Assembly (NCBI RefSeq): GCF_044324875.1
Contig: NZ_CP172185.1
DNA from: Escherichia coli
GTDB taxonomy: Bacteria > Pseudomonadota > Gammaproteobacteria > Enterobacterales > Enterobacteriaceae
Length of the DNA: 64,000 nt
Direction: 5' to 3' (one strand)
Every line of letters begins with the position of its first letter. Within the stretch, counting starts at the first letter, position 1. Both the position numbers and the translations under genes were made by a program. The notes under the pieces were generated by a model. It was not told the DNA's origin, did no database searches, and was given only the letters and a program-made list of their open reading frames with translations. This document shows positions 19,373 to 39,445 of this stretch, one piece after another.

Positions 19373-21106
19373 ATGGAAATCATGTTACCAAAAAACACCT
19401 TATATGATAGAGAGCAAAATATCTTTTTTGAAAAGGTTACGGCCTTAATTGGAGAAAATGGTGCTGGTAAATCCTCGATTTTACAATCCGTATTTATTAA
19501 CTGTTTAACAAAAAAATATCTACCAGAAACAAAGGTTGTTTGTTTTTCTTCTGGACAAAATGAGAAATACTCAACGTACTTCTCTGATTATCTTTCTCAT
19601 GAAAGGCAAGCAAATAGAGGTCTTAGCTTAGATTGTTGTTATTACGATAAATCATGGTCAAAGTTACTAATATTCATATCCACAATTTGTAAATCAAATG
19701 GTCTTGTTAGAAATTTTTTATGTGAGAAAGGCTATATTGATGTATCAGATGATAAAAATGATGATATATCAAGCAAGCTTACATTGACGGTCCGAGTAAA
19801 TTCGGCTTACGTTAATCGAGTAAAAATGGCATTAGCACAAGAAGAACAAGGTATTGAAAATACTTTAAGGTATTCAGCTTATCATAGGACTTTAGAAAGT
19901 TTCATTAATAATATTGTTAATGCTGATTATGATTTCGAGTCTCCACTTGAAGCTCAAGAGATCTTGCTAACTCATTCAAATTTTTTCAATCCATCATTTG
20001 AGGAAGGAGAAGATTCCTTTTTTGATCCTATCATAACATTTTTCACTCAAGCAGCAGATAATGATTACTTTATAATAAAACCATCATTACAGCTAGAGTT
20101 TAAAAATAATATCGAACTGAATGATATTAGTGATGGGGAATATCAAGTACTCTTTTTATACTCTTTGCTTGATATTTTTGATAGTCCTAATACTTTATTC
20201 TTATTAGATGAGATAGATTCCCATTTACATTACAAGAATATTGAGCTCTTATGGCATCGACTACATAGTATTAATGGTTATGCGATAACAACCACCCATC
20301 TATTAGACTCAATTACAGCTACTGATAATGATTTTAAAAACTTAAAGATTGTTGATAAAGGAAAAATAAAAGAAGATGATAAAATAAAAACTATAATAGA
20401 ACGTTTATCTGTCTTGACAAGAATATCAGACGTACAGTTCGAAGTGTGTCGTAAACTAGAAAACATTGTATTGATGGATGATTATAATGATTGGACTATT
20501 TTTTATGCCTTAGCAAAGAAAAAAGGACTTGATGTATCAAAGTTAGATGGCCTCCATGCAATAAAACAGTCCTCTGGTTACGATAATTTAAATCAAGAGT
20601 TCGCAAAACCAAAAATAGAGTGGATTAATTCGCTTTTAAATGTAAATACTGATAAAAAAGTCAAAAAAATATTCATGATCTGCGACAAAGATGAGGCTCC
20701 AATTACCTATCAGAAAGATGGAGTTCAAGTCAATGGAAGTGAATGTTCAAAACATATAGCGAAGTTAGAAAATAAAAACAAAAATAAAATATATCTCCTT
20801 GTCTGGAAAAGAAGAGAAATAAAAAACTACTTATTATCTTATACGGCATTGTCTCATCATGGATTTATCGGGCAAATAAACAATGGTGATCTGCCGGCTA
20901 ACAGTTATTTAAAAGAAAACGATCCTGGAGATAATTCAGCAATTAGCCGGCTTAACGTAAAACATTGCATCACAAAAATAATTGATTCTGATGGTATAGG
21001 ATTAGATATATCAAAACTTTACTCATATATAGAACTTATACCACCTGCTGAGATCAGTGAAGATATAGTGAATATGTACAATTTTTTGGTGGAGAAATTA
21101 AAATGA
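19373..21106 (+). CDS. OLD-family-like ABC ATPase with C-terminal Toprim-like region (putative nuclease/ATPase component)
   Basis: Walker A GENGAGKSS, ABC-signature-like ISDGEYQ, Walker B LFLLDEIDSHLH, H-loop TTTH; C-terminal DxD-type motif FMICDKDE; about 28% GC. Confidence 0.75.
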   Translation: MEIMLPKNTLYDREQNIFFEKVTALIGENGAGKSSILQSVFINCLTKKYLPETKVVCFSSGQNEKYSTYFSDYLSHERQANRGLSLDCCYYDKSWSKLLIFISTICKSNGLVRNFLCEKGYIDVSDDKNDDISSKLTLTVRVNSAYVNRVKMALAQEEQGIENTLRYSAYHRTLESFINNIVNADYDFESPLEAQEILLTHSNFFNPSFEEGEDSFFDPIITFFTQAADNDYFIIKPSLQLEFKNNIELNDISDGEYQVLFLYSLLDIFDSPNTLFLLDEIDSHLHYKNIELLWHRLHSINGYAITTTHLLDSITATDNDFKNLKIVDKGKIKEDDKIKTIIERLSVLTRISDVQFEVCRKLENIVLMDDYNDWTIFYALAKKKGLDVSKLDGLHAIKQSSGYDNLNQEFAKPKIEWINSLLNVNTDKKVKKIFMICDKDEAPITYQKDGVQVNGSECSKHIAKLENKNKNKIYLLVWKRREIKNYLLSYTALSHHGFIGQINNGDLPANSYLKENDPGDNSAISRLNVKHCITKIIDSDGIGLDISKLYSYIELIPPAEISEDIVNMYNFLVEKLK

Positions 21107-23004
21107 ACACCTCTTTATTTGAAGATCTACTTACACTAATCAAGAAAAAGAGTTCGATAAGAAATACAGAACAAGCAGTAGAGCTAATTTCATTATTTAT
21201 TTTTTTACATTATATAAAATTATATTTTTATGAAAATGATAAAAGATTCTCAGATATAAAAAACATATCAAGCAACAACATTAATGAAATTAAATATTAT
21301 TACCAGCAACTATATGAAAGCTTTATTTTATCGATAGATATAAAAAATATAAACCACGACATGCTTGAAAATCTCAGGAGCAAGATAGGTTTTTTAATTA
21401 ATAACATCAATAACCATGAAATAATCAAATATATAGATTATTCTCTTTCGCATATACATTCACTTACAGAGTTCTATCAATATGCAAATTCTTATCAATC
21501 TTTAATTCTTAGGATGGTTAATGAATCGGGTCGTTCAGGGGAATATGTTACTCCATCTGCTTTAGTTCAGCTCATGGTTGAAATGTTATCACCTACAGAT
21601 GGCACATCAATCTACGACCCAGCATGTGGAACTGGGGGTTTATTAATAGAGTCAGCACGATATATTAAAGGCAACAGTTTAAACAAAAACTTTAATTATT
21701 CCCTTATTGGTAATGACACATCATCATTTGCCTGTCTAATCTCAATTGTTAACCTTTTAATCAATAAAGAATTTAACTTTGAAATAATACTAAAAGATAG
21801 CTTAGATATAAATTATAAGAATAAAAAATATGACTTTGTTTTAACTAACCCACCATTTGGGAAAAAGAGCGGTTGGGATAATATTCATATTGACACACAT
21901 TATAAAGGACCTAATCTAGACTATTACTTCCTGGAGCATGTTATTGACTCTCTCGCTGTTAATGGCAAAGCAGCCATAATATTACCAGAGCGTTTTTTAT
22001 ATGATGTGAGTAAAGAGTGCATCACTCTTAAAGATAAGATCTTCCAAAATTATAATTTAGATTGTATTTTATCTATACCGTCAGGTGCATTGCTTCCTTA
22101 CACTGCAGTAAAATTATGTATTCTTTTTATAAGTAATTCTGGCCCAACAGATAGAATATTTTTCTACAATTTAAATAATGGTAAAAAATACTCACGTACA
22201 AATACTATAAAATTCGATGATTTTATAGATTTTTTAGAGTCAGCAAAAAATAGAACAATAACTGAACACTCCTGGATTATCAATATTAGTGATACACCTT
22301 CATCTTATAACTTACTCTTAAAAGATAAAGAGCGAAACTCATATGAGTTTCTTAGTGATTCTATAGTTAACATTGAACAGACAATACGTAATAATGAATT
22401 GTTACTAACCGAGTTGTCTTTATTAAGAGAAAAAATAGAGATCTTAGAGTCAACAATAAAAAATCATTCGCATGAATATGAATTTGAGAGACTTAAAGTT
22501 GGAAATATTGCATTAGTAAAATCCGGAAATTTATTACAAAAAAATAGACTATTATCCACTGGGCCAATTCCTGTATATGGTGGGAATGGAGTTATTGGAT
22601 ATAATTATGAGGCAATGGAAAATGGTGAAAATATTATTATTGGTAAGGTCGGAGCTCTTTGCGGAAACGTTCGGTATGTTCAAGGTGATATTTGGGTGAC
22701 AAATAACTCATTAATTATTAAGAATTATTTACCAAATAAAGTTTTAACACCCTACCTTGCAAAGTTATTATCTACTTTAAACTTAAGAAAGCTCGCCGTT
22801 GGTACCGCTCAACAATATTTAACCACAACACAAATAAAAAATGTAGAAATTAACATTCCACCTTTAACGACCCAGCATAAATTAAATATGTGGCTTGATG
22901 AGTTAGATAATACCCTTGAACAATATAATAAGCTCATTGAAAAAATAATGAATGATAAGCGAGAACTTAAAGAGAATTTGTATAAAGGTCTTTTAATAGA
23001 ATAG
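21103..23004 (+). CDS. N6-adenine DNA methyltransferase fused to a single HsdS-like target-recognition domain (M-S fusion)
   Basis: Motif I IYDPACGTGGLL, motif IV NPPFG, C-terminal TRD-like region; start ATG overlaps upstream stop (ATGA at 21103-21106); GGAG ribosome-binding site at 21091-21094. Confidence 0.8.
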   Translation: MNTSLFEDLLTLIKKKSSIRNTEQAVELISLFIFLHYIKLYFYENDKRFSDIKNISSNNINEIKYYYQQLYESFILSIDIKNINHDMLENLRSKIGFLINNINNHEIIKYIDYSLSHIHSLTEFYQYANSYQSLILRMVNESGRSGEYVTPSALVQLMVEMLSPTDGTSIYDPACGTGGLLIESARYIKGNSLNKNFNYSLIGNDTSSFACLISIVNLLINKEFNFEIILKDSLDINYKNKKYDFVLTNPPFGKKSGWDNIHIDTHYKGPNLDYYFLEHVIDSLAVNGKAAIILPERFLYDVSKECITLKDKIFQNYNLDCILSIPSGALLPYTAVKLCILFISNSGPTDRIFFYNLNNGKKYSRTNTIKFDDFIDFLESAKNRTITEHSWIINISDTPSSYNLLLKDKERNSYEFLSDSIVNIEQTIRNNELLLTELSLLREKIEILESTIKNHSHEYEFERLKVGNIALVKSGNLLQKNRLLSTGPIPVYGGNGVIGYNYEAMENGENIIIGKVGALCGNVRYVQGDIWVTNNSLIIKNYLPNKVLTPYLAKLLSTLNLRKLAVGTAQQYLTTTQIKNVEINIPPLTTQHKLNMWLDELDNTLEQYNKLIEKIMNDKRELKENLYKGLLIE

Positions 23005-23084: not shown

Positions 23085-26000
23085 TTAATAATGCTCCTCA
23101 ATATACCCATACGCCTTCTGGAACAACTCTTTATCTTTCCCTAGTCCAAACTGGGCCAAGGTCAGTAAAAGCGCCTTTTGGATTTCGCGCGGGCCACTGT
23201 TGGAATTTTGCCAGCCATCAAAGCGGGTAGCTTTCACAATTTTATCAATTTGCTCTACAACATCACCGATTAACTTAGGGGTAGTTTCCGGACGTGTTTC
23301 GAGGAAAAGCTTAGTCAACGCCTGTTTATTATCAGCTTCAGTTACTGGGCGCTCGCCCGTTTCGCGCTCGGCTTGAACGGTATCTTTCGCTGCATCCAAC
23401 AGGCCTTTCAACCAGTCAATGGCCTTGATAACACCAGCTTCATAGTCCTGACGCAGTTTTTCAAGGCGCTCGCCCAATGCCACAAATTTAGGATCATGAC
23501 TGCCGCGCAAACGTCCCATAAGATCAATCTCCAGGCGTTTGGCACGTTGTTCCTGCTCTTTAGCGGTCAGGGTAAAAATAGCGTGCTCGTCCATAACCAA
23601 CTCGTCAATATCATCGCGAATACGATTGATATCAGTATGCTCATGGATCATCTTGATTGTTTCGGGGCCAAGGGCAGCCCAAACAAGCGCACCTGTCTGC
23701 CCTACCGGACGCACCGATTCATAAATTTGCGCCAGCCATTTATAGTCCTGACGATAAGAGGTCAAAAAAGGATCTGGGTTGATAGCTGACCATAACTTGG
23801 ATAACACACCAAAGCTGGCAGCGAATTCATCGCGTTTCTCGTTGGTCGGCAGGCATTCCTGCGCGGCCATAATACCTTCAAAACCAGCTATGGACCGATC
23901 CACACCAGGGAAGAAGGACAAACATTTATTCAGTTGTAACGGCAATAGCTCTTTAAATGCCTCAATTCCCTCTACAACTCCTTCAATTTCTTCAGGGTTA
24001 TAGGCCAGAGCGGTACGCAGATTTTCGAAAACGCCGAGGTAGTCGATAATTAATCCCATGTCCTTGCGTACAGTATCGGTTTCGTACAACCGGTTGGTTC
24101 GGCACATGGCCTGAAGAAGAGTATGATCGCGTAGAGGCTTATCGAGGTACATGCAGTAGCAAATCGGGGCATCAAAGCCCGTAAGCAGCTTGGCGGTTAC
24201 GATAATAAGCTGTAATGGATGTTCAGGATCTTTAAAGCATTCAATCAGATCCTTTTGCACCTGTTCTTCGGCATCAATGTGCTGCCAGCGTTCAAAATCG
24301 ACTTGTTTGACTGGCAGCTCCAACTCATCATGCCATTTAAGCCAATCCTTGTTGAGCTTGTCTTTTTTGCCACCCTCTTCAACTTTAACCGGAGCCTGGT
24401 CAACGTTCATAACCACTTCAACCGCATCAAAACCAAGCTTTTCACCGAGCAAATAATACATCTGCACACAGGCTTCGCGATCGTATACCACAACCATGCC
24501 TTTCATCTTTTTCGGCATAACATGGTTGGTAAAATGCTCAGCAATATCATTACTCACCGCAGCCATACGCCTAGGGGATTTCAGCATGATTGCCAGCTTG
24601 CCTGCACGCCTGGACAATGCTGCTTTTTCTTCTTCATCCAGGTTGTTTTCGGTAGCCAGTTGCTCGAACTCTTCATTGATGGCATCACGATCCACTCGGA
24701 GTTCAGCCAGCCGAGGTTCGAACTTCACCGGGTTAGTTGCGCCATCCCGGATCGACTGCTTATAGCTATAGCGGCTCATATAGCGACCCGGATCTTCTTC
24801 GGCACCGAACAATTTGAACGTATTACGATCAATGCCAGAAATCGGAGTACCTGTCAGGCCATAGAAGTGGGCATTGGGCAACGCCCAGCGCATTTTCTCG
24901 CCTAATCCCCCTTCCTGTGTACGGTGAGCTTCGTCAACCAACACAATGATATTGTCACGGTTGTTCAGGCCATTAGGGTTGCTATCGTCAATTTCGATAT
25001 CTTTAAATTTAAAGATGGTGGTGATTAAAATGCCACGGCTGTCTTGTTCAATGTATTCACCCAGCTTTTTGCAGCTTTGCACTTTAATCAGATTCTTAAC
25101 GTCGGCTCCACCAAAGGTCTCGTTAATTTGGCTGTCCAGATCTCGCCGGTCCACAACGATAAGTACCGTCGGGTTTTTTAACGCATTATCGGCACGTAGC
25201 ATTTTGGCGGCGTAAAGCATCAACAAGGATTTACCCGATCCCTGGAAATGCCAAATAAGACCTTTTTTTGGATAGCCTCTGCGAACACGCTCAACGATTT
25301 GTTTTGCTGCTTCAAATTGCGGATAACGCGGCAAGATTTTAACGCGTTTAGGTGGAGTATTTTTGCCCGTTTTGACGGTTGAAAATAATGCGAAAGATTC
25401 CAGTAACTGCAATAAGGTTTGCGGATTTAACAAACTCTCACAGCTATTGAGTACCGATGCTAATCCCGGCAGAATCTCATCACGAAGCTCAGTATTATGC
25501 CAGGGTCCCCAGTCTTTAACTCGGGCATTAATGGCACCATAGGCAAAGGTTTTTCCTTCGCTGGCAAAGCACAGCAAGTTAGGTACAAAGAAAGATTCAA
25601 CATTTTTCCAGTAGTACTTTTTGCCACCCATGAAATCGGCAGCACCGTCTTGCCAGGTCACGCTGGGGCGTGTTGCGGTTTTAACTTCGCCCACTACTAG
25701 CGGTATGCCGTTCACATAAAGAACAATATCAAAATAGACTTCAGTGGCCGCGATATAGCGAACCTGCTGCGCCACCACAAAGTGGTTGTTCTCTATATTG
25801 TCAAAATCAATCAGATTGATGGTGATATGGTCGCCATTCTTACCAAAAGGCAAGGTTTTGTCGGCCATCAACCATTCCTGGAAGTTTTCATTGGCCTTTA
25901 CCAAGCCGGTATGGCGGGCTTCTAAAACCACTCCTCGCAGTTTGTAAATGACCTCATCGGCATAGTCAGGCTGTCTGCCGATATCAGGGTTTAACGAACA

Positions 26001-26147
26001 AAGCGCGTCTTTTAGCCACTCATCAACGAAGATATCCTGCGCTTGTTTAGGCAGGTTTTCACCGTGGCAGTAAGTCCACTTGACTCCGCTTAAACCTTTT
26101 AAACGGTCGATAATTCCATTTTCTGTGACGGTTTGTTCGTTAAACAT
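23085..26147 (-). CDS. hsdR: Type I restriction enzyme R subunit (HsdR)
   Basis: 1020 aa; PD-(D/E)xK-like DIVLYVNGIPLVVGEVK, Walker A QGSGKS, DEAH box VDEAHRTQ, GLTGTP. Confidence 0.9.
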   Translation of the reverse strand: MFNEQTVTENGIIDRLKGLSGVKWTYCHGENLPKQAQDIFVDEWLKDALCSLNPDIGRQPDYADEVIYKLRGVVLEARHTGLVKANENFQEWLMADKTLPFGKNGDHITINLIDFDNIENNHFVVAQQVRYIAATEVYFDIVLYVNGIPLVVGEVKTATRPSVTWQDGAADFMGGKKYYWKNVESFFVPNLLCFASEGKTFAYGAINARVKDWGPWHNTELRDEILPGLASVLNSCESLLNPQTLLQLLESFALFSTVKTGKNTPPKRVKILPRYPQFEAAKQIVERVRRGYPKKGLIWHFQGSGKSLLMLYAAKMLRADNALKNPTVLIVVDRRDLDSQINETFGGADVKNLIKVQSCKKLGEYIEQDSRGILITTIFKFKDIEIDDSNPNGLNNRDNIIVLVDEAHRTQEGGLGEKMRWALPNAHFYGLTGTPISGIDRNTFKLFGAEEDPGRYMSRYSYKQSIRDGATNPVKFEPRLAELRVDRDAINEEFEQLATENNLDEEEKAALSRRAGKLAIMLKSPRRMAAVSNDIAEHFTNHVMPKKMKGMVVVYDREACVQMYYLLGEKLGFDAVEVVMNVDQAPVKVEEGGKKDKLNKDWLKWHDELELPVKQVDFERWQHIDAEEQVQKDLIECFKDPEHPLQLIIVTAKLLTGFDAPICYCMYLDKPLRDHTLLQAMCRTNRLYETDTVRKDMGLIIDYLGVFENLRTALAYNPEEIEGVVEGIEAFKELLPLQLNKCLSFFPGVDRSIAGFEGIMAAQECLPTNEKRDEFAASFGVLSKLWSAINPDPFLTSYRQDYKWLAQIYESVRPVGQTGALVWAALGPETIKMIHEHTDINRIRDDIDELVMDEHAIFTLTAKEQEQRAKRLEIDLMGRLRGSHDPKFVALGERLEKLRQDYEAGVIKAIDWLKGLLDAAKDTVQAERETGERPVTEADNKQALTKLFLETRPETTPKLIGDVVEQIDKIVKATRFDGWQNSNSGPREIQKALLLTLAQFGLGKDKELFQKAYGYIEEHY

Positions 26148-26151
26148 ATAG

Positions 26152-27306
26152 TCAAACTCCTAGAAGCTCATATATTAATGCTTGTCTAAGATTAAAATAA
26201 TGTTCTTTTTTATCTCTCAGCACCTTCAATATTTTCTCGAGCGATTCCAATTTTTTTACTAAAATATCTGAGTCAGTAAATAATTTATTATGAATGAAGA
26301 TATCATCAAAAACTCTTACTGTTACTCTTTGCCTACCTGAAGTGCCTTCCATGTGATGAAGAGCATAATGCCTAAATTTCTTTGTTTTGATTATGTAATA
26401 ACCAAGTTTCTTTAGAAAATGATCTTCAAATTTTGATCTCATCACTATAAACTCAGTGGATCCCACAGCTATACTCTCTTCTGCAAGAAAATCAACAAAT
26501 GCTGCCTTACCATTTTCAAAACAAGGTGTGATTCTAGCCAAAAGGATATCATCTTTTCTAAATTTCATACCAGAAGATTTTCCTGACTTAGTTTCTCCTT
26601 TATAGTCTATATATGGAAGTTCAACATCTAAAGATGCCATATCAACATATGGTATTATTTCATCCACTGACCCAATCTTTGGATTAATTAAAAAAGAATC
26701 ACTTAATGAACTCCAGTCATTCTTTTTCCCAGCTGATGTTGTCGCCAGATAAATACCTACTTCAGCATCTATAACATCCTGATATAACTTTCTTACCGAT
26801 AATATAGTTTCATTAAGATGCATATAGCATTCATGGAATTTGTCAAGAATAACTAAGGCACTATTTTGTTTTTCTCTATCGAGAATATTAAATTTAAAGC
26901 TTACAACATCCTTCCATCTAATATGCTTATTAGTTGAACCAATAGTATTTTTTAACGTATGCTCAGCAAAACTTTCAGATTGAAAGATATATGGAAGCAA
27001 TCGACTTTCAAAACCATGATATTGCTTTGGCGTACATACAATAACCTTCTCACCACAATATCCTTCTCTATCAGCTATCGCGACTTTTCTTAACTGCGGA
27101 TTTCTAGTTAGATAAAGTATGTCTCCTGGGCTAAATTTCTTCCCAAAAGTTGGCCCCATATCATCAGGGGCGATTCCGTAGCGAGAGAAAAATATTTCAC
27201 AATTATCAAAGTCTTCTCCTCTTACACAATATTTAACATTAGGATCTAAATTATTCTTCTCCCATATGTTTTTTTCTTTTACTAAGTCAGAAAGAGTAAT
27301 CTTCAT
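26152..27306 (-). CDS. hsdS: Type I restriction-modification specificity subunit (HsdS), two TRDs
   Basis: 384 aa with two TRD-like halves and conserved HsdS segments; overlaps hsdM stop by 4 bp; very AT-rich. Confidence 0.85.
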   Translation of the reverse strand: MKITLSDLVKEKNIWEKNNLDPNVKYCVRGEDFDNCEIFFSRYGIAPDDMGPTFGKKFSPGDILYLTRNPQLRKVAIADREGYCGEKVIVCTPKQYHGFESRLLPYIFQSESFAEHTLKNTIGSTNKHIRWKDVVSFKFNILDREKQNSALVILDKFHECYMHLNETILSVRKLYQDVIDAEVGIYLATTSAGKKNDWSSLSDSFLINPKIGSVDEIIPYVDMASLDVELPYIDYKGETKSGKSSGMKFRKDDILLARITPCFENGKAAFVDFLAEESIAVGSTEFIVMRSKFEDHFLKKLGYYIIKTKKFRHYALHHMEGTSGRQRVTVRVFDDIFIHNKLFTDSDILVKKLESLEKILKVLRDKKEHYFNLRQALIYELLGV

Positions 27307-28766
27307 ATCTTTCCTCCATTAAAAAAGTAAGAAGAGTTCATATTCAATTCTTTTCTAAACGATTGCCATTTACTTATCTCCCTTGAGAGATTTAAATCTT
27401 TAAATTCTTTTTCTATATACACAGGAACATTTAGATTAAAATCGTTATCTTCGACTTCCTCGATAGAGGCTATATACGTAGTAATATTAGAGACATCCTT
27501 CAAACTAATGTAAGAGTTATAGATATTCATTATATTAATATCATTTAAATAAGCATGATTCCTAGTGGTAATAAGTTCATCATAGGCATTTATAAATAAT
27601 ATTTTCCCTTTTAGCTCAGTTCGTTTATTGCAATTCAACAAAATAATACATGCCGGCATAGGTGAATTATAAAACAATCCAGGGCCAAGACTAATTACAC
27701 ATTCAATAATATCTGTTTGAATAATTTTTTCTCTGAGCTGTTTCTCACTTTCTCTGAAGAGAACTCCATTTGGCCAGAGCATAGCTGCGCGACCAGTATC
27801 AGGCTTCAGGCTTTTAATTATATGGGTATAAAACGCATAATCAGCACAGCCCTGCGGTGGTACACCATAAAGATTACGACCATACGGATCAGCGGCAAAC
27901 TTGTCACGATTCCATTTCTTAATGGAGTACGGTGGGTTAGCAAAAATCACATCAAACTGCTTGAGCCGATCGTTTTCAATAAACTTTGGTTCAGCCAGAG
28001 TATCACCGCGCAGCACATCAAATTCTTCAATATCGTGCAGGAACATATTCATACGAGCAATAGCGGAAGTCAGCAGGTTCACTTCCTGGCCATAAAGGTG
28101 CACAGAGCGCCACTCTTCTCCTCTTGCACGAAGATCCATCACTGCATTTAGCAACATCCCTCCAGTGCCACACGTTGGATCATAGGCTGTTTCACCCGGT
28201 TTTAAGCCCATAATGCGCGTCATTAAATGCACGACTGTTCGGTTGGTGTAGAACTCTGCTGCCGTATGACCGGAATCATCAGCGAACTTTTTAATCAGGT
28301 ATTCGTAGGCTTCACCAAGATCATCCTGGGCGACAGATTTAATGCCGAGCGGAATTTTACTGAAATGTTCAATCAGATCAGCCAGCAGATGATCGGGAAG
28401 GCGCTCTTTATTGGTCCACTGTGCATCACCGAAGACGCCATGTAAACGCGGGTTATTGGCTTCAATTAGTCGAAGCGCATTCTGGATCGCTTCACCAATG
28501 TTTTTACTGGTATTGCGTACCTTTTCCCAACTGGCTTCAGAGGGAATATTGAAACGGTGAAACATCGGCATGGCGGCATATTCAGCATCACCTTCATGGA
28601 GTTCCAGCGCTTCGTTATATTCTTCCAGATAGACATCTGACAGGCGTTTGTAAAACAGCAACGGGAAGATATACTGCTTGTAGTCTGATGCGTCAATTTG
28701 GCCACGAAGAAATTCGGCGGCTCCCCAGAGCAGCTCTTCCAGCTTTTTATTACTCATAGTACTCAT
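27303..28766 (-). CDS. hsdM: Type I N6-adenine methyltransferase subunit, paralogue 2 (HsdM)
   Basis: 487 aa; motif I YDPTCGTGGML, motif IV NPPY; start overlaps upstream hsdM stop (ATGA at 28763-28766); 3' third of the gene is markedly AT-rich. Confidence 0.9.
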   Translation of the reverse strand: MSTMSNKKLEELLWGAAEFLRGQIDASDYKQYIFPLLFYKRLSDVYLEEYNEALELHEGDAEYAAMPMFHRFNIPSEASWEKVRNTSKNIGEAIQNALRLIEANNPRLHGVFGDAQWTNKERLPDHLLADLIEHFSKIPLGIKSVAQDDLGEAYEYLIKKFADDSGHTAAEFYTNRTVVHLMTRIMGLKPGETAYDPTCGTGGMLLNAVMDLRARGEEWRSVHLYGQEVNLLTSAIARMNMFLHDIEEFDVLRGDTLAEPKFIENDRLKQFDVIFANPPYSIKKWNRDKFAADPYGRNLYGVPPQGCADYAFYTHIIKSLKPDTGRAAMLWPNGVLFRESEKQLREKIIQTDIIECVISLGPGLFYNSPMPACIILLNCNKRTELKGKILFINAYDELITTRNHAYLNDINIMNIYNSYISLKDVSNITTYIASIEEVEDNDFNLNVPVYIEKEFKDLNLSREISKWQSFRKELNMNSSYFFNGGKI

Positions 28767-30262
28767 ACCTCGAACCCTTCTTTGATAAGCAGGGCCTCCA
28801 GCTCCTCTTCTGCTTTTTCCAGCTCAGCCAGCTTCCGTTGAAAATCTTTGAGCGCTTCTTCCACAGTAATGGTTTCTTCTTCGAGTGGCTTTTGCACATA
28901 ACGAGCAATATTTAGATTGAAGTCATTTTCTTCAATCTCCTTCAGAGGAACCCAGCGTGCAACGCCTTCGATTTCTTTTGCATCTGGCCCTTGTTGCGCC
29001 TGGTCATGATAGATTTGGTATATTTCATCGGCCTGCTTGTTGGACAGCGTATTCTGCGCACGCCCCTTGGTATAGATTTCTTCAGCATTGATGATCAATA
29101 CATGATCTTTATGCGCTGCCGGACGTGATTTACGCAACACCAAAATACACGCAGGAATCCCAGTCCCATAGAACAGGTTGGAAGCAACACCAATAATCGC
29201 CACAATGCGATTCTCTTGCAGTAATTTGGTTCGAATTGCCCCCTCTGCGCCGCCACGAAACAGCACACCATGAGGTAATACGACAGCCATACGTCCATTG
29301 TCGTTAAGTGAAGCAAACATATGCTGCACCCAGGCAAAATCACCATTTGTTTTAGGCGCCAGGCCATATCGCTTACGGCCATAGGGATCGTTCGACCACA
29401 GATCGTATCCCCATTCTTTCAAGCTAAACGGTGGGTTGGCAACAACGCAGTCAAAGGTTTCTAAACGATCGCTTTTTAAAAATTTAGGTTCGCGTAACGT
29501 ATCCCCTCGGACAATATCGAAATCTTCCTGTCCATGCAGGAACAGATTCATACGCGCAATAGCTTCCGTCGTTAAGTTCTTTTCCTGACCCTTGATTTTT
29601 AGTAAACGCGGATCACCACCATTTTCTTTTACATGGTGGATGGTCTCAAGCAGCATACCACCGGTACCACAGGCGGGATCGTAGACACTCTCACCGGCTT
29701 TTGGATCAAGAATGTTAACCATCAAACGAACGATAGTTCGTGGGGTATAGAACTCACCGGCTTTCTTATTGGCTTTGTCTGCAAAGCGTTTGATCAGATA
29801 CTCGTATGCGCGCCCCATATCATCGTCACGGACACTAGAAACGCCAAGGTTCACCTTATTGAAGTGATTGAGTAACGTAGCCAGTAACTCATCAGAAAGG
29901 CGTTCTTTATTGGTCCAGCTGGCATCGCCAAAAATGCCATGCAGTTTAGGGTTTGCCAGTTCTATACCACGGAAGGACTCTTTTAAAGCCTGACCGATGT
30001 CCTTGGTCTCAGCGAAAACATCGCGCCAGTGGCAATTTTCAGGTATCTGAATACGGTGAAACATCTTGCCCTTGGCAAGCTCTGCATCCCCAATGCTCTC
30101 CATCGCATCGGCAAATTCTTCGTCATACACGTCACAAATGCGCTTGAAGAACAGGATGGGGAAAATGTACGTTTTGTAATCTGACGCATCAATGGGCCCT
30201 GTAATAATATGGGCTGCATGCCATAGATGGGCCTCGAGATCTTTTAGGTTAATCAGTGTCAT
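28763..30262 (-). CDS. hsdM: Type I N6-adenine methyltransferase subunit, paralogue 1 (HsdM)
   Basis: Start chosen at MTLINLKDLEAHLW (ATG 30260-30262); GEFYTPRTIV, YDPACGTGGML, NPPF motifs; 499 aa. Confidence 0.9.
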   Translation of the reverse strand: MTLINLKDLEAHLWHAAHIITGPIDASDYKTYIFPILFFKRICDVYDEEFADAMESIGDAELAKGKMFHRIQIPENCHWRDVFAETKDIGQALKESFRGIELANPKLHGIFGDASWTNKERLSDELLATLLNHFNKVNLGVSSVRDDDMGRAYEYLIKRFADKANKKAGEFYTPRTIVRLMVNILDPKAGESVYDPACGTGGMLLETIHHVKENGGDPRLLKIKGQEKNLTTEAIARMNLFLHGQEDFDIVRGDTLREPKFLKSDRLETFDCVVANPPFSLKEWGYDLWSNDPYGRKRYGLAPKTNGDFAWVQHMFASLNDNGRMAVVLPHGVLFRGGAEGAIRTKLLQENRIVAIIGVASNLFYGTGIPACILVLRKSRPAAHKDHVLIINAEEIYTKGRAQNTLSNKQADEIYQIYHDQAQQGPDAKEIEGVARWVPLKEIEENDFNLNIARYVQKPLEEETITVEEALKDFQRKLAELEKAEEELEALLIKEGFEV

Positions 30263-30505
30263 TGTTGTCTCTTTTCGATCCTGCAGTGCTTGAACTCTCA
30301 GCAACTCATGGATTTCACAGTAAAAAAGCAAGTAAAGCGATTCCACAACCACCTGAGCGTTCAATATGTATGACGCCTTTACCCAAGTTGCTTAAATCAA
30401 GGAAATTGCCTGAGATAATACTCTGGCATCAGAATGATACCAAGTTGAAGGGCTGATTTCCGCATCAATACCTTGTGGTAATAGGGGATTACTCTTTTAC
30501 CCTTA

Positions 30506-31156
30506 TTGGCGCAAAATGGCGGCATTTCCTCATTTCTCCTTCGGAGCATCTTACGCGCTATAACCACTCTCGTTTTTTCCTATTCCCATGCAGATGAAGC
30601 ACTACGCAATGAACTTGAGAAGCATCTCTCCCCGCTGAAGCGAACCGGGAAGATCACAACATGGCACGATCGCCGCATCGTTCCTGGTCAGGAGTTCGAA
30701 CGTCAGATCGACCACTATTTTTCGCAAGCAGATATCATCCTGATCCTGATCAGCAGTGACTTTATTGCTTCTGATTACTGCTATCAGGTAGAGATGAAAA
30801 ACGCACTGGAACGGCATGACCGGGGCGAGGCGGTGGTCATTCCGGTAATTTTAAGAAACTGTGCATGGCATCAGTTAGAATTCGGCAGCATTATGGCGGC
30901 GACTATCGACGGTAAACCCATCACTAAGTTTGCCACCCACGATGAAGGCTACGTTCAGGTCGTCGAGGCTGTCTCGCGTGCCATTGCCCGGATGGAAGCC
31001 AAAAAACCACAGCAAACCATACATATCCCTTCACCGGCTCCGGCGAATCCGATCTTTCAGGGAGTAGATTCCGTTTTTACACCGTGTTCAAGCAACCTTA
31101 TTCTATCTGTTATAGCCAGGATAATGTTGTTCGAAACAGTATTAACGAAACTCTAA
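30506..31156 (+). CDS. TIR-domain protein (ThsB-like, single-domain); start codon uncertain (TTG)
   Basis: LVFSYSHADE...ADIILILISSDFIASDYCYQVEMKNAL matches bacterial TIR core motifs; no in-frame ATG upstream of the TIR beta-strand, and no clear ribosome-binding site. Confidence 0.6.
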   Translation: MAQNGGISSFLLRSILRAITTLVFSYSHADEALRNELEKHLSPLKRTGKITTWHDRRIVPGQEFERQIDHYFSQADIILILISSDFIASDYCYQVEMKNALERHDRGEAVVIPVILRNCAWHQLEFGSIMAATIDGKPITKFATHDEGYVQVVEAVSRAIARMEAKKPQQTIHIPSPAPANPIFQGVDSVFTPCSSNLILSVIARIMLFETVLTKL

Positions 31157-32231
31157 GCCTTGCTGATAACAGCCAGACTCTTGGTTTTCGTGCTCTGATG
31201 GGAGGCTTCAGTCGTGGAACTTCACGAGACGAACTATTGACCAATGAAGGTATGTCGGAACATCTCTGGGAAATGTTCTTCGGGCTAATCAAGCAAAGAA
31301 TGTCCCGATAATTTGCCATATCACAGTCGGGCATACTGCCCGATTTTTGTGCTGTCATTATTGGCAATATCTCAATAGGCGTTGAGAAATGGTGCAATTT
31401 AATCTTGCCAGAGCGCTGTTACTTGGGGACGAAATTAATGGGCTCCTGCTGTAGTTACATCAACGCCTGTCTATACAAAAACAGGCGTAGCAAATTCATG
31501 CAGGCAAATACGTTTTCTTAAGCGGCACCAATAGCTTAGTCTCTATATCCACTTGCTCATAGTTTTCCACTAACGCGCGTACCAAATCATCCAGCGTCCA
31601 TAGCGTCAACGGGATTGTAGAACGATCGGCCTCATAACGCGCATCCTTGCTGAATCCGCCGGTACTAACATACAGCCCGCGATCGTCTTTATGGCGGCCA
31701 CCGATAAAGCTACGGATTTGCTGGCTGCTCATCTGTTCCCGCCGGTGCTTCACCTCAACAATAATGCGCGGATTTTCAAACCCAAATCCGTCAGGGGAAG
31801 CAATGATATCTTTCCCACGGTCAGCACCCGCAGGCGATACCTGAGTTTTATATCCCATGCTACGTAATACGCCAGCGACCAGATTCTGCATCTCATCCCA
31901 GTCGAGACGGTTGATACGATCCTTGATGCCTTCAAAAGCAATCATTTCCATGTCGCGCAGAGGATTAGAAACAACCTCATCCTCTTCACCTGAAACAGGT
32001 ACTTCCGGCACGACATCTGAGACAGGCTTTTTGCCCTGCACTAATTCATTCACGGCAAAATCAGGCACCTGAAAAACTGTCAGCGTTGAGCCAAGGGTGT
32101 TTCTGGTTGCATCACTCAGACTATCGCGCTTAATCTCTTCCGTATTCCACTTCACTTTACGGGCGATGCCCATGCCATCTTCAAGCCACTCGGCATGAAA
32201 CTCAAAATCTGAGGCAATTTTCCCTATTAAA

Positions 32232-33515
<1,284 letters not shown>

Positions 33516-33893
33516 TCCGATTAGAAGGTGAATAAGTGATAGCCCAATCGCCTTTCTGCATTTCATTCACAAAGCGCCAAACCTGAGAAGCACCAGAGCG
33601 AACTGTGCCTGGCTTAGTCTGTGGCTCAAGCTCCTGATACCGGATAAACAACTGCTCTCTTGAGCATCCAGGTTTCACATAGGGAGCGAGCTGCGACCAA
33701 CCAATTGCAACAACCTGTTTGTCTCTGAAGTCGTCGTACAATTTTCCGCCATCACCGCGGATCATCCACATCTTAGTCGCCACAATAATTCCTTCTGAAA
33801 ATACTTCATCGTTATACCGGGACGTGATCATTCCATTCAGCCACCTTATCCAGGGGAAAAACACCGATAAGATGGCTAATCAAAATGTCTGTT

Positions 33894-36800
33894 CTAAACC
33901 TGACGCCTATCAAGACTATTATAAATAGCCTCAATCTCACCTTTCAGGTTATCACCAGAGTAAACCATCGATGTATCGTATCGTTCATATCGCGCTTCCC
34001 GTGTCGCACTAAACCAGTTGAACGATCCCACGCATAGCAAACCATCATCACCAATAACAATTTTGCTATGAACACGGTTTACCAGCTTTGTAGCAATACC
34101 CAGCGCATTCAGTTTCTCCAGCGCCGCTTTAAGGTTCTGCTGCTTCTCTTTTCGCTTCTCAAAATCTTTATGTTCAGTGTTATAGCTTCTGTCAGTGACT
34201 ATCGTGACGTTAATTCCACGTGAACACGCCGCAATCATGGAATCAAGAAAACCCGTTTGCTCCAGCTTTTGCCAGGTCAGCCATGGAGAAACTATCGTGA
34301 TGTGTTTATCGGTATTTTCAAACGTCTGATTCAGGAAATTATCATGCTGCTCCACACCATGGAGTGTGTAGATTTTGGTCTCGGAAGTTTTTAAATCCTT
34401 ACGCTCTTTATAATCAAAAGAGAGCGCATTCTTCTCGGACTCAAAGAGATATTTTGCCAGTAATCCCCGCGGAGATGAGGCTGGCTGGATCTCAAACAGG
34501 TCCATATCGCCGAAGACCAGGAAACTGTCCTTCGCACGGGAGACAGCAACGTTCAGCATGCTGTTATCGCTATCAATAAACCCGCCATCCTCATGCTTTG
34601 AATAGACTGGCGAGAATATAACAATCGCTCTTTCCGCCCCCTGAAGAGAATGCACGGTGCCCACGGTGAGCGACGTTTCATTCGCGCCTGTACTGATGCC
34701 TTGTTTACCCAGCGCCTGTTTGATAGTCGATACCTGCGCGCTAAAAGGCGTCACGATACCGACAACTTCATGAAGCGATTTGCCGTAATGCGCTTCAATA
34801 TCTTGCTGGTTATCTGTCAGCCAGGCAGCTATCGTTTCAGCCTCAAGCAAATTATATCGACTTCCGCTACTTGCCAGCGCTCCTTTACCATCAATATGGA
34901 GATAACCCATTGCGGGCATTAAATTGCTCTCTTCACGCCCTCTTTTAGGCAACAACTTACCGTGATAGCAGAGCGTATTACAGTATCCAATAATATTATC
35001 GAAGCACCGGCGGTGTTCATATAGGTACATACCACGAGCCAGTTCGGGATCATATTGATAGCGCGAAGCAAACTGAGCTATTTTCATAACGCTGCCAGAT
35101 GCGGCACTTTTACCAAGGTCTGCGATTGCCGTATATTTCTCGGTAATCTCTTCTTGCGTACTGCCAGACAGAATTTTTTCCGCCAGCATGTTACCGATAT
35201 CAATCGCAGGAGCAATACTCCATATTGGCGGGATCTGCTCCGTATCGCCAATCACTAATGCCTTCTTAGCTAATGCAAACGAGGCAGCAGCCACTTCAGG
35301 AAGCACCTGTCCGGCTTCATCGACAATGAGTAAATCGGCAAAATCATACAAATAACTTTTCTCGAATTTACGTTGTCCTTTGTGCTCACTTATCTGCATA
35401 TTGCCGGGCAGCATATAGCATGTCATCACCACACATGGAATGAGTTTCATTCGACGTTGCCAACGGGCAGTTACTCCTTTAGCGCCTTTTTTCTTCTTCT
35501 CTTCCTGCAGATCATCAATTCTGGCCATATCCATCAGCCAACGACCTTCCCAGTAGTGAGTCGTCAGTAAAAATGCAGGGAAGCGAATCTGCGTATCAGC
35601 CAGTTCATCGGCCTGTGAGAAGCTCAGTTCCTCGTCGCCCTCATACCCTAAATCAAGTGTCAGCCTCTGCCACTCCTGAACCGCCTGCTGTTCTTTAAGA
35701 ACGATTTCATGGGCGGAGTCAATCTGCTTCCGGTATGTTGTTTGCTCGCGTTCAGCGGAATTGAGCAGCCCATCAATATTACGTTCGATAGTTTCAGGAT
35801 CAGACCACTGATTTCCTGCAATCAGCGCGCCTAATTTATCTTCGAGAAACAGCTGTATTTGGTACTGTCGCTTATTGCGAACCGCCGGGAGCCAGGAAAA
35901 TAATGAATAGATCAGTGATTCACCGGCGCGATATTTTTTCCATTCCGTTTTAGCACTCTTCAGTAGAGTAACTTTTTGTTCTTGCCCGGAGAGTAATTTA
36001 TTTAAATTATCGAGATATTGCTCAATGTTATCAGCAATAAGCTCACGCGCCGCCCGAACCTGGCTTAACGTTTGCCATGTTGCGTTCAGTCTTATCAGTT
36101 GCTCGGATTTTGCTGCCAACTGACCATGCAGGAGTTCAATGACCTTTTCAGGGGATGAACACTCTTTTTCAGGAAAGGCTGCCTTAGCCTTCTCCAGATA
36201 AAACAGCAGTGCATCCTCTACATACTCTTTTGACTCAACCTGGTTGAAGAAATCTTCAGTTTGATATTTTTTGGCGGCCTCAGCTTTACGAGTGCTTGAG
36301 GGAAAATAAGCGCCGAAGCTTTTCAGCTCTGGCAACCATCGTCCGGCCATCGCACCGGTGCCCTGGGAAAAATCTTTCCCGAACGCCTCGATAATGTTCG
36401 TGACAGCCTGGTTATTCGTTGAGGTCGCGATAATGACCGGAGGCTCAGATTTTTCGAGAGCCGCTCGGGCCCACTGCGTGGCGATGATAGAAAGCACCAG
36501 CGTGGTTTTTCCGGTTCCCGGAGGGCCATTAACAGCAAGGATATCGCCATGTCTGGCATCCAGAAAATGGCTTAAGGCATCGCGCTGAGCCTTTGCCAGC
36601 GGAAACTTATCTCCGGAGTGTCCAAGCCTGTCGCTGAATTTTGCTCCTGGGGCCAGCAAAGACTCTGCAGCATGAACCTCTCGCGAGGCGAAGCGATTGA
36701 AGAGTGGCACATCCTTCTTGCAAACAAGCAGGTGATCATAAAGCGAAAGGATATGGAAACTGGCACCGCCAGATTGCGCCGTTTTAACAATATAACCGTG

Positions 36801-37409
36801 CTCAGCGAGTTCATATTGCTCAGGATTTTTAATCCAGTCGCCGGCAACGTTCTTCAGCAGCCTCTCTGAATCATCCAGATATTGACGCCAATCCTGCTGC
36901 AAGGCTGCATATCGTGCTTCCCGTTCTTCATCCGTTTCGGCAGTGTTATCAACGCTGTCATCAAACTTGATAGAGAATGACGTATGTGTCGTTTTATATT
37001 TGTCATACTGCTCAATCTCACCAATCGAAAATGCCCCTTTTGGCAAAGGTTCAAGCAGGTCTCTGGGAATGGAGGTCGCTGGCGTCGGGTATAAAAAACC
37101 CTCACGGCTTAGCAAGGCTGGCGTCACTAGCGGGGTAACAATATCAGGCACGCCTGCGGAACGGTCCTTACCATGCTGCAGTAACCGAAAATAAACTTTT
37201 GGGCGCAAGACGACATCGACCGTTTCGACATCGTCTTTTTCTCCCTCAAAAAATTTACTGACAATCGCTTCGTCAAGACGTCCCGCCGCTATCCCATGCC
37301 AGTGAGTGAAATTTTGGGCGTCTTTCCGTTCAAAGCTGCCCTTTCCTGACTCAGCATCCGCAAGCGAGTTGCGCCAGTATGAGGCAAACCCTAAAGCATT
37401 TTCATCCAT
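33894..37409 (-). CDS. SF1 (Upf1/DNA2-like) helicase fused to a C-terminal PLD-family (HKD) nuclease domain; Mokosh type II-like single-protein defence candidate
   Basis: 1171 aa; Walker [11 protein letters not shown], Walker [10 protein letters not shown], motif [19 protein letters not shown]; C-terminal [19 protein letters not shown] (HxK-x4-D-x6-GSxN). Confidence 0.8.
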
Positions 37410-37734
37410 TACCAGTCCTATGACTCAATGAAATCCATTGATTTATCGAATATAAAATCACCGTATGGATAACTATTGTCCACGTTGAAAGGCTGGCTGC
37501 AATGTTTTGTTCACGCTTCGATACAAATACTCAGGTTATACGGAGTTCAGAAAACGACCATATCATGCTGCATGGCACATAAAAGCTTTATAACCGAAGC
37601 AGCAAAGGATTACCGGCTGCGCAGCACGCCACGAAAGCCCGTGAGCTCTACTGGACAGCGTTCAGTGCAATATTGGAGTCTGTAAGTCCAGAAAATATCA
37701 CTGTCGAAGATGGTTCTGTATGTAGGTGCGCCAG

Positions 37735-38112
37735 CTATTGTTTTGTCCGATGCTTGCGAATAAAAGCATTCAAAATGTCGCCTTCACCATGCATGACAGA
37801 AAAAGAATATTCACATTCTTTCTTTATCAAGATTCCACATAATTCCTTGTGCAAATCTACATTAACTCCCTTTCCTTTCTGTGCTTTCTTCACACCGAGC
37901 TCACATGAACTGATTAATTCAACGTTACAGGGTTTCTTCAAATAATTCACACCATCAATTAAGCCCTGGAGAATGCATCTATTTGCGGTCGTATTACTGT
38001 AGGAGAAGGTCAGATATTTTATTTTCCCTTCACATTCCAGCACAACTTCCGCCGAACCTTCACGTGTTGCAGCATCACAACTTCCTGTTGAATATATTTT
38101 CACCATCTTCAT
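37735..38112 (-). CDS. Small RNase H-like fold protein with apparently substituted catalytic residues
   Basis: 125 aa; VKIYSTGSC, NRCILQG, VNVDLHKEL align by eye to the RNase HI blocks FTDGSC, NRMELMA, KNVDLWQRL, but the D10/E48/D70 positions read T/I-C/S. Confidence 0.45.
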   Translation of the reverse strand: MKMVKIYSTGSCDAATREGSAEVVLECEGKIKYLTFSYSNTTANRCILQGLIDGVNYLKKPCNVELISSCELGVKKAQKGKGVNVDLHKELCGILIKKECEYSFSVMHGEGDILNAFIRKHRTKQ

Positions 38113-38180
38113 TTTGTACCTTTCCCCTTACCAAACGAATCATGACATCCTATATCAAAGGCATTCTCGTCAAAACTTTA

Positions 38181-39360: not shown

Positions 39361-39445
39361 TGGTGCCGAAGGCCGGACTCGAACCGGCACGTATTTCTAC
39401 GGTTGATTTTGAATCAACTGCGTCTACCGATTTCGCCACTTCGGC
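39361..39445 (-). tRNA. leuX: tRNA-Leu (anticodon CAA), leuX
   Basis: 85-nt sequence GCCGAAGTGGCGAAATCGG...ATTCAAAAT...GGTTCGAGTCCGGCCTTCGGCACCA on the - strand; anticodon loop contains CAA; encoded CCA end. Confidence 0.9.

What the first reader, a model, noticed from the sequence alone, without database searches (positions are those of the whole stretch)
28230..28262. hsdM(2) carries Asn in place of the conserved Pro of the FYTP motif
hsdM(1) has the canonical GEFYTPRTIV block, whereas hsdM(2) reads AEFYTNRTVV. This F/Y-Y-T-P block is strongly conserved in Type I/gamma-class N6-adenine methyltransferases as far as I recall. The substitution may mark functional divergence (regulatory or structural subunit rather than catalytic) of the second paralogue.
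Basis: partly seen in the sequence, partly recalled or inferred. Interest (0 to 1): 0.35.

Follow-up and report, generated by a model that had tools for sequence, protein, structure and literature searches.

The report
Cytosine-methylating second subunit of Type I system
The Asn-for-Pro change is real, but it is the invariant signature of an already described, catalytically active subunit (M2) that methylates cytosine rather than adenine in two-methylase "PacII-like" Type I restriction systems, so it marks a change of target base and not a loss of catalysis.

Summary
The ORF at 27303..28766 (-) encodes AAEFYTNRTVV at 28230..28262, with the Asn175 codon AAC at 28242..28244. The upstream paralogue at 28763..30262 (-) reads AGEFYTPRTIV.

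The window is an E. coli chromosome, in the leuX island. The operon order is M1(NPPF)-M2(NPPY)-S-R, the architecture of the m4C/m6A Type I systems of Morgan et al. 2016. The window's M2 matches PacII M2 (PDB 7VRU_B) at E=1e-252, and that chain carries the identical HTAAEFYTNRTVVHLMTRIMGLKPGETAYDPTCGTGGML stretch. PacII M2 has been shown by experiment and by crystal structure to make N4-methylcytosine.

- Asn is present in 120/120 close homologues.
- It is present in 37/37 M2-clade representatives, and Pro is present in 101/101 non-M2 HsdM representatives.
- It is the sharpest of only seven clade-discriminating positions, all of them in three segments: the motif X loop, motif IV, and the 368-371 loop that Morgan et al. 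model beside the flipped base.
- The other catalytic motifs are intact, and the core is under purifying selection (dN/dS 0.09-0.16).

It was wrong to suggest a non-catalytic role. This is an uncharacterised member of a known kind, and interest is low. The one modest new point is that the papers searched do not discuss this Asn in their text, and that it predicts the clade better than NPPY does.

The parts
28242..28244 (-). Asn175 codon (AAC) of M2. It is equivalent to Asn183 of PacII M2 and replaces the motif X Pro (Pro174 of M1).
   Evidence: The +8 numbering offset to PacII M2 comes from the alignment and from the residue numbers F180/N285/Y288 given in PMC9613975.
28230..28262 (-). Motif X block AAEFYTNRTVV of M2. 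It holds the 'AAEF' pocket motif; Phe172 corresponds to PacII M2 Phe180, part of the aromatic cage around the flipped cytosine.
   Evidence: PMC9613975.
28158..28181 (-). Motif I (AdoMet binding) DPTCGTGG of M2, intact.
   Evidence: D196, P197, G200, G202 and G203 are invariant or nearly invariant in alignment A2.
27927..27938 (-). Catalytic motif IV NPPY of M2, the m4C-type motif.
   Evidence: PMC5100572.
27654..27668 (-). Active-site loop NSPMP of M2 (PacII M2 Asn375-Glu379, NSPME). The last residue is Pro here rather than the clade-typical Glu.
   Evidence: PMC5100572 discussion.
28701..28712 (-). FLRG, containing Arg21 of M2. This is equivalent to PacII M2 Arg29, which holds the target adenine outside the M1 pocket. 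M1 has Thr at this position.
   Evidence: PMC9613975.
27303..28766 (-). hsdM2 gene: the M2 subunit, predicted N4-cytosine methyltransferase, 487 aa. RefSeq starts it at 28757, giving 484 aa.
28763..30262 (-). hsdM1 gene: the M1 subunit, N6-adenine methyltransferase, 499 aa, with AGEFYTPRTIV at 29729..29761 and NPPF at 29426..29437. The mechanical ORF extends upstream to a TTG at 30364.
26152..27306 (-). hsdS specificity gene, 384 aa. Its N-terminal TRD1 is a divergent member of the cytosine-half-site TRD family.
23085..26147 (-). hsdR restriction/translocase subunit, 1020 aa, with all domains present.

Best explanation
[quoted passage not shown] One M1, one M2 and one S assemble into a heterotrimeric methyltransferase. 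M1 (AGEF...TP, NPPF) methylates an adenine (m6A) in the half-site read by TRD2 of S. M2 (AAEF...TN, NPPY, NSPM loop) methylates a cytosine at N4 (m4C) on the other strand, in the half-site read by TRD1. With two R subunits the complex restricts unmodified DNA. Asn175 is not a defect. It is the fixed, clade-defining state of motif X in all M2 subunits. It lies one residue after the invariant motif X Thr174, which by the M.TaqI Thr23 analogy (my own knowledge) would contact AdoMet. It is also the last residue of the mobile loop (PacII M2 residues 173-183) that carries the cage residue Phe172 and hydrogen-bonds the cofactor. Asn175 caps the N-terminus of helix 176-186. Inferred, not shown: replacing the rigid Pro with an N-capping Asn is part of the remodelling of this loop, together with T168, A170 and T177, that lets the pocket close on the smaller cytosine.
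For: Architecture: two HsdM paralogues, S and R lie in one minus-strand operon in the order NPPF-M, NPPY-M, S, R. This is the order Morgan 2016 describes. M1 and M2 are 46% identical, against a published range of 45-55%.
Homology: M2 matches PacII M2 (7VRU_B) at E=1.3e-252 and PacII M1 only at 8e-131. The motif X to motif I stretch is identical to PacII M2, Asn included.
Published experiments on the family: M2 NPPY-to-APPA mutants lose m4C and M1 mutants lose m6A. The crystal structure shows cytosine in the M2 pocket, the AAEF/NPPY cage, and loop 173-183 contacting SAH.
Conservation: AAEFYTN plus NPPY is present in 120/120 close homologues. Among the aligned representatives, Asn is present in 37/37 M2-clade representatives and Pro in 101/101 non-M2 HsdM representatives (the representative clusters are at 50% identity). 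Only seven positions discriminate the clades (168, 175, 177, 280, 368, 370, 371), and they fall in three segments: the motif X loop, motif IV and the 368-371 loop.
Pairing: distant M2s (42-46% identity) have a TP/NPPF M1 directly upstream.
Constraint: dN/dS of the M2 core is 0.09-0.16 against two other E. coli alleles.
Structure prediction: an AlphaFold2 model (pLDDT 91) places Asn175 immediately before helix 176-186, at the end of a lower-confidence loop.
S subunit: TRD1 of S matches TRD1 of S subunits from five other M1M2 systems, PacII included, and does not match EcoKI S.
Arg21 of M2 (PacII Arg29) is present, and M1 has Thr there.
Against: No methylome or biochemical data exist for this E. 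coli allele in what I could search. TRD1 of S is the most divergent of those compared (22-30% identity), so the half-site is unknown. PacII M2 can also methylate adenine when it is offered one, so cytosine as the target here is inferred and not shown. The window's M2 has Pro instead of the clade-typical Glu at position 371 (NSPMP), which is the m6A-clade state at that position. The specific structural role proposed for the Asn is inference: neither paper mentions N183 in its text, and I could not inspect coordinates.
Confidence: 0.88

Rival explanations
1. One reading: M2 has lost catalysis and serves only as a structural or regulatory partner that completes the M2S-like complex, while M1 does all the methylation.
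For: The motif X Pro is otherwise universal (101/101 representatives). M2+S alone gave no methylation in four published systems, whereas M1+S gave partial m6A.
Against: Motifs I and IV, Thr174 and the Phe172 cage residue are intact. The identical motif is found in PacII M2, whose pocket holds the target cytosine and SAH and whose APPA mutants lose m4C. The seven positions that discriminate the M2 clade lie in the motif X loop, motif IV and the 368-371 loop and are fixed within the clade, not decaying. dN/dS is 0.09-0.16.
Confidence: 0.03
2. M2 is catalytic, but in this particular allele it methylates adenine. The divergent TRD1 would present an A, giving an m6A/m6A system built from two different M subunits.
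For: PacII M2 methylates adenine when the target bases are swapped. TRD1 of this S is only 22-30% identical to other cytosine TRDs. S and the 3' end of M2 form a low-GC (about 32%) swapped cassette. Position 371 carries Pro, the m6A-clade state.
Against: TRD1 still matches only TRD1s of M1M2 systems and not EcoKI S or any other solved S subunit. All ten systems characterised in Morgan 2016 modify C through M2. Six of the seven M2-specific pocket positions are retained.
Confidence: 0.07
3. The Asn is an artefact or a strain-specific lesion, that is, a sequencing error or a recently inactivated paralogue.
For: None beyond the rarity of non-Pro residues at this position.
Against: Changing AAC to CCN needs two substitutions. 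The 7.3-kb operon is at least 99% identical in 20 complete E. coli genomes. The Asn is present in every M2 homologue examined, down to 42% identity.
Confidence: 0.01

Closest known systems
PacII M1M2S (Pseudomonas alcaligenes NEB585): the m4C/m6A non-canonical Type I R-M system (Morgan et al. 2016, PMC5100572; structures 7VRU/7VS4, Zhu et al. 2022, PMC9613975)
   Same: Same gene order M1-M2-S-R. M1 carries AGEF/TP/NPPF, with residue numbers identical to PacII M1 (F171, P174, N276-F279). M2 carries AAEF/TN/NPPY and the NSPM loop, and has the Arg29 equivalent. The M2 catalytic core matches at E=1e-252, with a stretch from motif X to motif I identical to PacII M2.
   Different: About 90 C-terminal residues of M2 (the S-binding part) and the whole S subunit are unrelated or only distantly related (TRD1 29% identical, TRD2 no match). 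They lie in a low-GC cassette, so the recognition sequence must differ from CCC-N5-RTTGY. Glu379 of the PacII loop is Pro here. The host is E. coli, and the system lies in a leuX defence island.
Sen483I (Salmonella enterica SL483) and other enterobacterial two-M Type I systems
   Same: The same family. A Salmonella M2 homologue (P0039) is 81% identical and carries AAEFYTN/NPPY. Other E. coli alleles at the same leuX locus (L007, L008) have the same M1-M2-S-R layout.
   Different: I could not obtain the named Sen483I sequences, so equivalence to P0039 is assumed. The S subunits differ.
Classical Type I HsdM (EcoKI, EcoR124I, StySJI): a homodimeric m6A methyltransferase in an M2S1 complex
   Same: Same fold and domain set (HsdM_N plus N6_Mtase), same motif order, and the same partners S and R.
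   Different: Classical systems have one hsdM gene, motif X ends in T-P, and motif IV is NPPF. The window's M2 is 25% identical to EcoKI HsdM and carries T-N plus NPPY.

Membership tests
m4C/m6A (PacII-like, M1M2S) Type I R-M systems | Two hsdM paralogues with S and R in one locus, in the order M1 (NPPF), then M2 (NPPY), then S, then R | tested here: met
   ORFs 28763..30262, 27303..28766, 26152..27306 and 23085..26147 all lie on the minus strand, and their Pfam/NCBIfam assignments agree. The criterion is from PMC5100572.
m4C/m6A (PacII-like, M1M2S) Type I R-M systems | M1 pocket motifs AGEF and NPPF; M2 pocket motifs AAEF and NPPY | tested here: met
   M1 has KKAGEFYTPR and NPPF. M2 has HTAAEFYTNR and NPPY. 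The criterion is from PMC9613975.
m4C/m6A (PacII-like, M1M2S) Type I R-M systems | M2-specific active-site loop Asn-Ser-Pro-Met-Glu (PacII M2 residues 375-379), against Gly-Thr-x-Ile-Pro in M1 | tested here: met
   M2 has NSPMP, so 4 of 5 residues match and the last is Pro, not Glu. M1 has GTGIP. The criterion is from PMC5100572.
m4C/m6A (PacII-like, M1M2S) Type I R-M systems | M1 and M2 are 45-55% identical, and each is closer to its own class in other systems than to its operon partner | tested here: met
   M1 and M2 are 46% identical. M2 scores 842 bits against PacII M2 and 440 bits against PacII M1.
m4C/m6A (PacII-like, M1M2S) Type I R-M systems | The N-terminal TRD1 of S belongs to the conserved cytosine-half-site TRD group | tested here: met
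   TRD1 matches the TRD1 of S subunits from PacII and four other M1M2 loci (E 1e-9 to 1e-17). It does not match EcoKI S, and PacII S is the only solved S subunit it hits. Identity is only 22-30%, so this is a weak pass.
m4C/m6A (PacII-like, M1M2S) Type I R-M systems | Conserved Arg in the M2 N-terminal domain (PacII M2 Arg29), absent from M1 | tested here: met
   M2 has FLR21G, and M1 has Thr at the aligned position. The criterion is from PMC9613975.
m4C/m6A (PacII-like, M1M2S) Type I R-M systems | A bipartite site carrying m4C on one strand and m6A on the other, and restriction of unmodified DNA | not testable with these tools
   This needs a methylome or cloning experiment. No paper in the library reports this for the allele.
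Classical homodimeric m6A HsdM (EcoKI / EcoR124I type) | A single hsdM gene per system, with motif X ending in Thr-Pro and motif IV NPPF | tested here: not met
   For M2: the locus has two hsdM genes, and M2 has Thr-Asn and NPPY. M1 on its own does meet the motif criteria.
Catalytically dead methyltransferase paralogue (pseudo-enzyme) | Loss of AdoMet-binding or catalytic motifs, and relaxed selection on the catalytic core | tested here: not met
   Motifs I and IV and Thr174 are intact. dN/dS is 0.09-0.16 over residues 1-390. The clade-specific residues are fixed.

The most novel reading that the evidence does not exclude
Asn175 (PacII M2 Asn183), which the text and searchable supplements of the two papers on this family do not mention, may be a causal determinant of cytosine acceptance and not just a passenger marker. 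By replacing the rigid motif X Pro at the N-cap of the following helix, it would free the loop bearing Phe172 to close on a pyrimidine. If so, a Pro/Asn swap would shift base preference between m6A and m4C, and 'T-N in motif X' would be a one-residue predictor of m4C activity in Type I methyltransferases, cleaner than NPPY (three Thr-Pro representatives also carry NPPY).
Probability: 0.2. Interest if true: 0.4.

Novelty: new member of a known kind. Interest (0 to 1): 0.15.

Why it matters
The main value is for annotation. RefSeq labels both genes generically as "type I restriction-modification system subunit M", and PacII M2 itself is deposited as "adenine-specific". Recognising the T-N / NPPY / NSPM signature lets the second gene be called an N4-cytosine methyltransferase. 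It also predicts that about 2% of complete E. coli genomes (109 of 5426) carry a Type I system that writes m4C. That matters for interpreting methylomes, for transformation barriers and for phage-host work. The Asn itself is a cheap, testable candidate for the long-standing question of what separates m4C from m6A specificity in amino-methyltransferases, but nothing here shows that it is causal.

Tried and rejected
1. Pseudogene or sequencing error: rejected. A Pro codon would need two base changes, the operon is at least 99% identical in 20 genomes, and the Asn is present in all homologues.
2. Loss of catalysis: rejected. The motifs are intact, the core is under purifying selection, and PacII provides direct precedent.
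3. NPPY as the diagnostic of the clade: not sufficient. Three Thr-Pro representatives (P0156, P0160, P0163) carry NPPY.
4. My first regex-based motif extraction mis-picked 'VVHLMT' and an upstream 'LFY'. I replaced it with an HMM-anchored alignment.
5. I searched the papers' text and supplements for N183, P174 and FYTN, and the whole library for EFYTN, FYTNR and AAEFYTN. Nothing relevant turned up, and the OCR of the supplementary alignment is garbled and unusable.
6. The listing of cluster members on ten M2 representatives, to get organism names and match them to the named systems of Morgan 2016, returned mostly unnamed metagenome proteins (only Thauera and Rhodocyclaceae were named). That link was not made.
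7. The literature search for a methylome of this E. coli allele found nothing specific.
8. Two PDB queries failed on wrong reading frames and were repeated correctly.
9. The AlphaFold model gives only secondary structure here. No coordinates were accessible, so I could not measure contacts between the Asn and the cofactor.

Full report
**1. Observation**

The 487-codon ORF at 27303..28766 (minus strand) translates to ...DDSGHTAAEFYTNRTVVHLMTR.... The block AAEFYTNRTVV occupies exactly 28230..28262, and Asn175 is codon AAC at 28242..28244. The adjacent upstream ORF runs 28763..30262 from the ATG that RefSeq uses; the mechanical ORF reaches a TTG at 30364. It reads AGEFYTPRTIV at 29729..29761. 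A Pro codon would need two base changes, and the whole 7.3-kb operon is at least 99% identical in 20 complete E. coli genomes. The residue is therefore real.

**2. What is there**

Pfam and NCBIfam identify four consecutive minus-strand genes:
- an HsdM (HsdM_N plus N6_Mtase) with motif IV NPPF,
- a second HsdM with NPPY,
- an HsdS (384 aa),
- a full-length HsdR (1020 aa).

The two M proteins are 46% identical. The window is an E. coli chromosome, and the locus lies in an island next to tRNA-Leu (CAA), between the fim/nan genes and ahr/yjgR.

**3. Identification**

A sequence search of the PDB gives PacII M2 (7VRU_B) at E=1.3e-252 and PacII M1 (7VRU_A) at 8e-131. The PacII M2 chain contains the identical stretch HTAAEFYTNRTVVHLMTRIMGLKPGETAYDPTCGTGGML, Asn included, whereas PacII M1 has AGEFYTPRTIV.

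Morgan et al. 2016 (PMC5100572) described this subgroup:
- two similar M subunits, 45-55% identical, in the gene order M1(NPPF), M2(NPPY), S, R;
- a heterotrimeric M1M2S methyltransferase;
- M1 makes m6A and M2 makes m4C, shown with APPA mutants;
- the systems restrict phage.

Zhu et al. 2022 (PMC9613975) solved PacII M1M2S with DNA and SAH:
- the target cytosine sits in the M2 pocket, caged by F180, P287, Y288 and F373;
- the family motifs are AGEF/NPPF for M1 and AAEF/NPPY for M2;
- a loop (M1 residues 164-174, M2 residues 173-183) takes different conformations in the two subunits and hydrogen-bonds SAH.

The window's M1 has exactly the PacII M1 numbering (F171, P174, N276-F279). The window's M2 is offset by 8 residues. 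The disputed residue is therefore Pro174 in M1 and Asn183 in PacII M2, the last residue of that loop. [quoted passage not shown]

**4. How conserved is the Asn?**

All 120 closest homologues have AAEFYTN and NPPY. They are at least 74% identical and include E. coli, Serratia, Klebsiella, Salmonella, Morganella, Shewanella, Vibrio, Photobacterium and Alteromonas.

I also took the best 150 hits among cluster representatives (one per cluster at 50% identity; 18,609 hits in all) and aligned them to the window's M2 with an HMM.
- Position 175 is Asn in 37/37 M2-clade representatives and Pro in 101/101 of the others.
- There are two oddities: one Ser (P0258) and one degenerate protein (P0176).
- Only seven positions separate the clades at my thresholds: T168, N175, T177, Y280, S368, M370 and E371. 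All lie in the motif X loop, motif IV and the NSPME loop.
- Position 175 is the only one that is 100% against 100%.
- NPPY alone is not diagnostic, because three Thr-Pro representatives carry it.

EcoKI, StySJI, 5YBB, 3LKD and PacII M1 all have Thr-Pro. M2 proteins only 42-46% identical to the window's still have a TP/NPPF M1 immediately upstream.

**5. Is M2 under constraint?**

Against two other E. coli alleles, residues 1-390 of M2 give dN/dS of 0.16 and 0.09. M1 gives 0.02-0.07. Motif I (DPTCGTGG), Thr174, Phe172 and NPPY are intact. This does not fit a decaying or purely structural paralogue.

**6. Structural position**

An AlphaFold2 model built from a 44-sequence alignment has a mean pLDDT of 91. 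It puts Thr174 in a bridge, Asn175 in coil and a helix at 176-186. The preceding loop has lower confidence, with block means of 67 and 82. Asn175 is therefore the N-cap of the helix that follows motif X.

From general knowledge, not tested here: Pro is favoured at the first turn of helices and Asn at the N-cap, so the exchange is structurally tolerable. In M.TaqI the equivalent residues are Val21 (contacts the flipped base), Thr23 (contacts AdoMet) and Pro24. That the Asn contributes to the different loop conformation and to cytosine acceptance is my inference. The papers do not mention N183, and no paper in the library contains the string EFYTN.

**7. The S subunit and what cannot be said**

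TRD1 of the window's S matches TRD1 of S subunits from PacII and four other M1M2 loci. The matches are 22-30% identical, with E from 1e-9 to 1e-17. It does not match EcoKI S, and PacII S is the only solved S subunit it hits. This places it in the cytosine-TRD group, but as its most divergent member among those compared.

S and the last 280 nt or so of M2 are about 32% GC, against about 46% for the rest of the operon. In other E. coli alleles the same 3' part of M2 is replaced. This looks like a swapped specificity cassette.

The recognition sequence is unknown. PacII M2 can methylate adenine if offered one, and this M2 has Pro instead of Glu at position 371. An m6A outcome at this half-site therefore cannot be fully excluded; I put it at about 7%.

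**8. Verdict**

The inference of divergence is correct. The proposed non-catalytic role is contradicted by direct precedent and by the conservation pattern. The system is an uncharacterised E. coli member of a family known since 2016, with a structure since 2022.

M2-type genes occur in 109 of 5426 complete E. coli genomes. For comparison, Morgan et al. estimate that two-methylase systems make up about 2.5% of putative Type I systems in REBASE.

The only mildly new point is that the Thr-Asn of motif X is the sharpest sequence marker of the m4C clade and has not been discussed or mutated. Interest is low.

Noticed in passing
window 19373..23004 (+): A two-gene module of only about 30% GC, against 43-50% around it. 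It encodes an AAA ATPase (577 aa, with weak AriA/mad3/PtuA-like and 'restriction system-associated AAA' hits) whose end overlaps the start of a 633-aa N6-adenine methyltransferase fused to a single S-type TRD (motif X GEYVTP, NPPF). No nuclease partner is evident. It could be a Type IIG-like, MADS-like or orphan system.
   Followed up: partly
window 26100..27700 (-): The S gene and the 3' end of M2 (roughly the last 90 codons, the S-binding C-terminus) are about 32% GC, against about 46% for M1, the M2 core and R. Other E. coli alleles keep the first 1180 nt or so of M2 at about 91% identity and replace the rest. M1 is 99.4% identical between the window and strain AST20, while the M2 core is 93.8% identical. 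This points to mosaic recombination that swaps a specificity cassette made of S plus the M2 tail.
   Followed up: partly
window 27654..27668 (-): The M2 active-site loop reads NSPMP in this lineage (31 of the 120 close homologues). PacII and 79 others read NSPME. Pro is the commonest residue at this position in the m6A (Thr-Pro) group. Any effect on base preference is unknown.
   Followed up: no
window 32235..33512: A 1278-bp insertion relative to strain O17_K12a carries an IS110-family transposase ORF (32340..33320). It splits a Mrr_cat / PADLOC PDC-S02 restriction endonuclease gene into ORFs 31496..32173 and 33418..33864.
   Followed up: partly
window 30506..31156 (+): A TIR-domain protein matches PADLOC ThsB at 3e-89, but no ThsA-like gene lies next to it. 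It is divergently transcribed from the Type I operon.
   Followed up: no
window 33894..38960 (-) and 39361..39445 (-): A 1171-aa protein matches MkoC (Mokosh type II) end to end (PADLOC E=0). It is followed by a 125-aa ORF with no hits and an HNH endonuclease (38181..38960), then tRNA-Leu(CAA) (leuX). RefSeq annotates a truncated DUF4102 integrase remnant in the equivalent strain. Taken together, about 19.3-39.4 kb of the window is a leuX-associated defence island.
   Followed up: partly
window 30263..30364 (-): The mechanical ORF for M1 starts at a TTG 34 codons upstream of the ATG that RefSeq uses and that aligns with residue 1 of PacII M1. The extension is probably not translated.
   Followed up: partly
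proteins P0121-P0141 (representatives); P0239: Many M2-clade representatives are 650-900 aa long, apparently M2-S fusions like Dac11109IV in Morgan 2016. One of them (P0138, 679 aa) has an HsdS-type domain on record (weak Methylase_S hit). P0239 joins an M1 C-terminus (NPPF) to an M2 N-terminus (TAQEFYTN), which is probably a read-through or a frameshifted M1-M2 junction.
   Followed up: no
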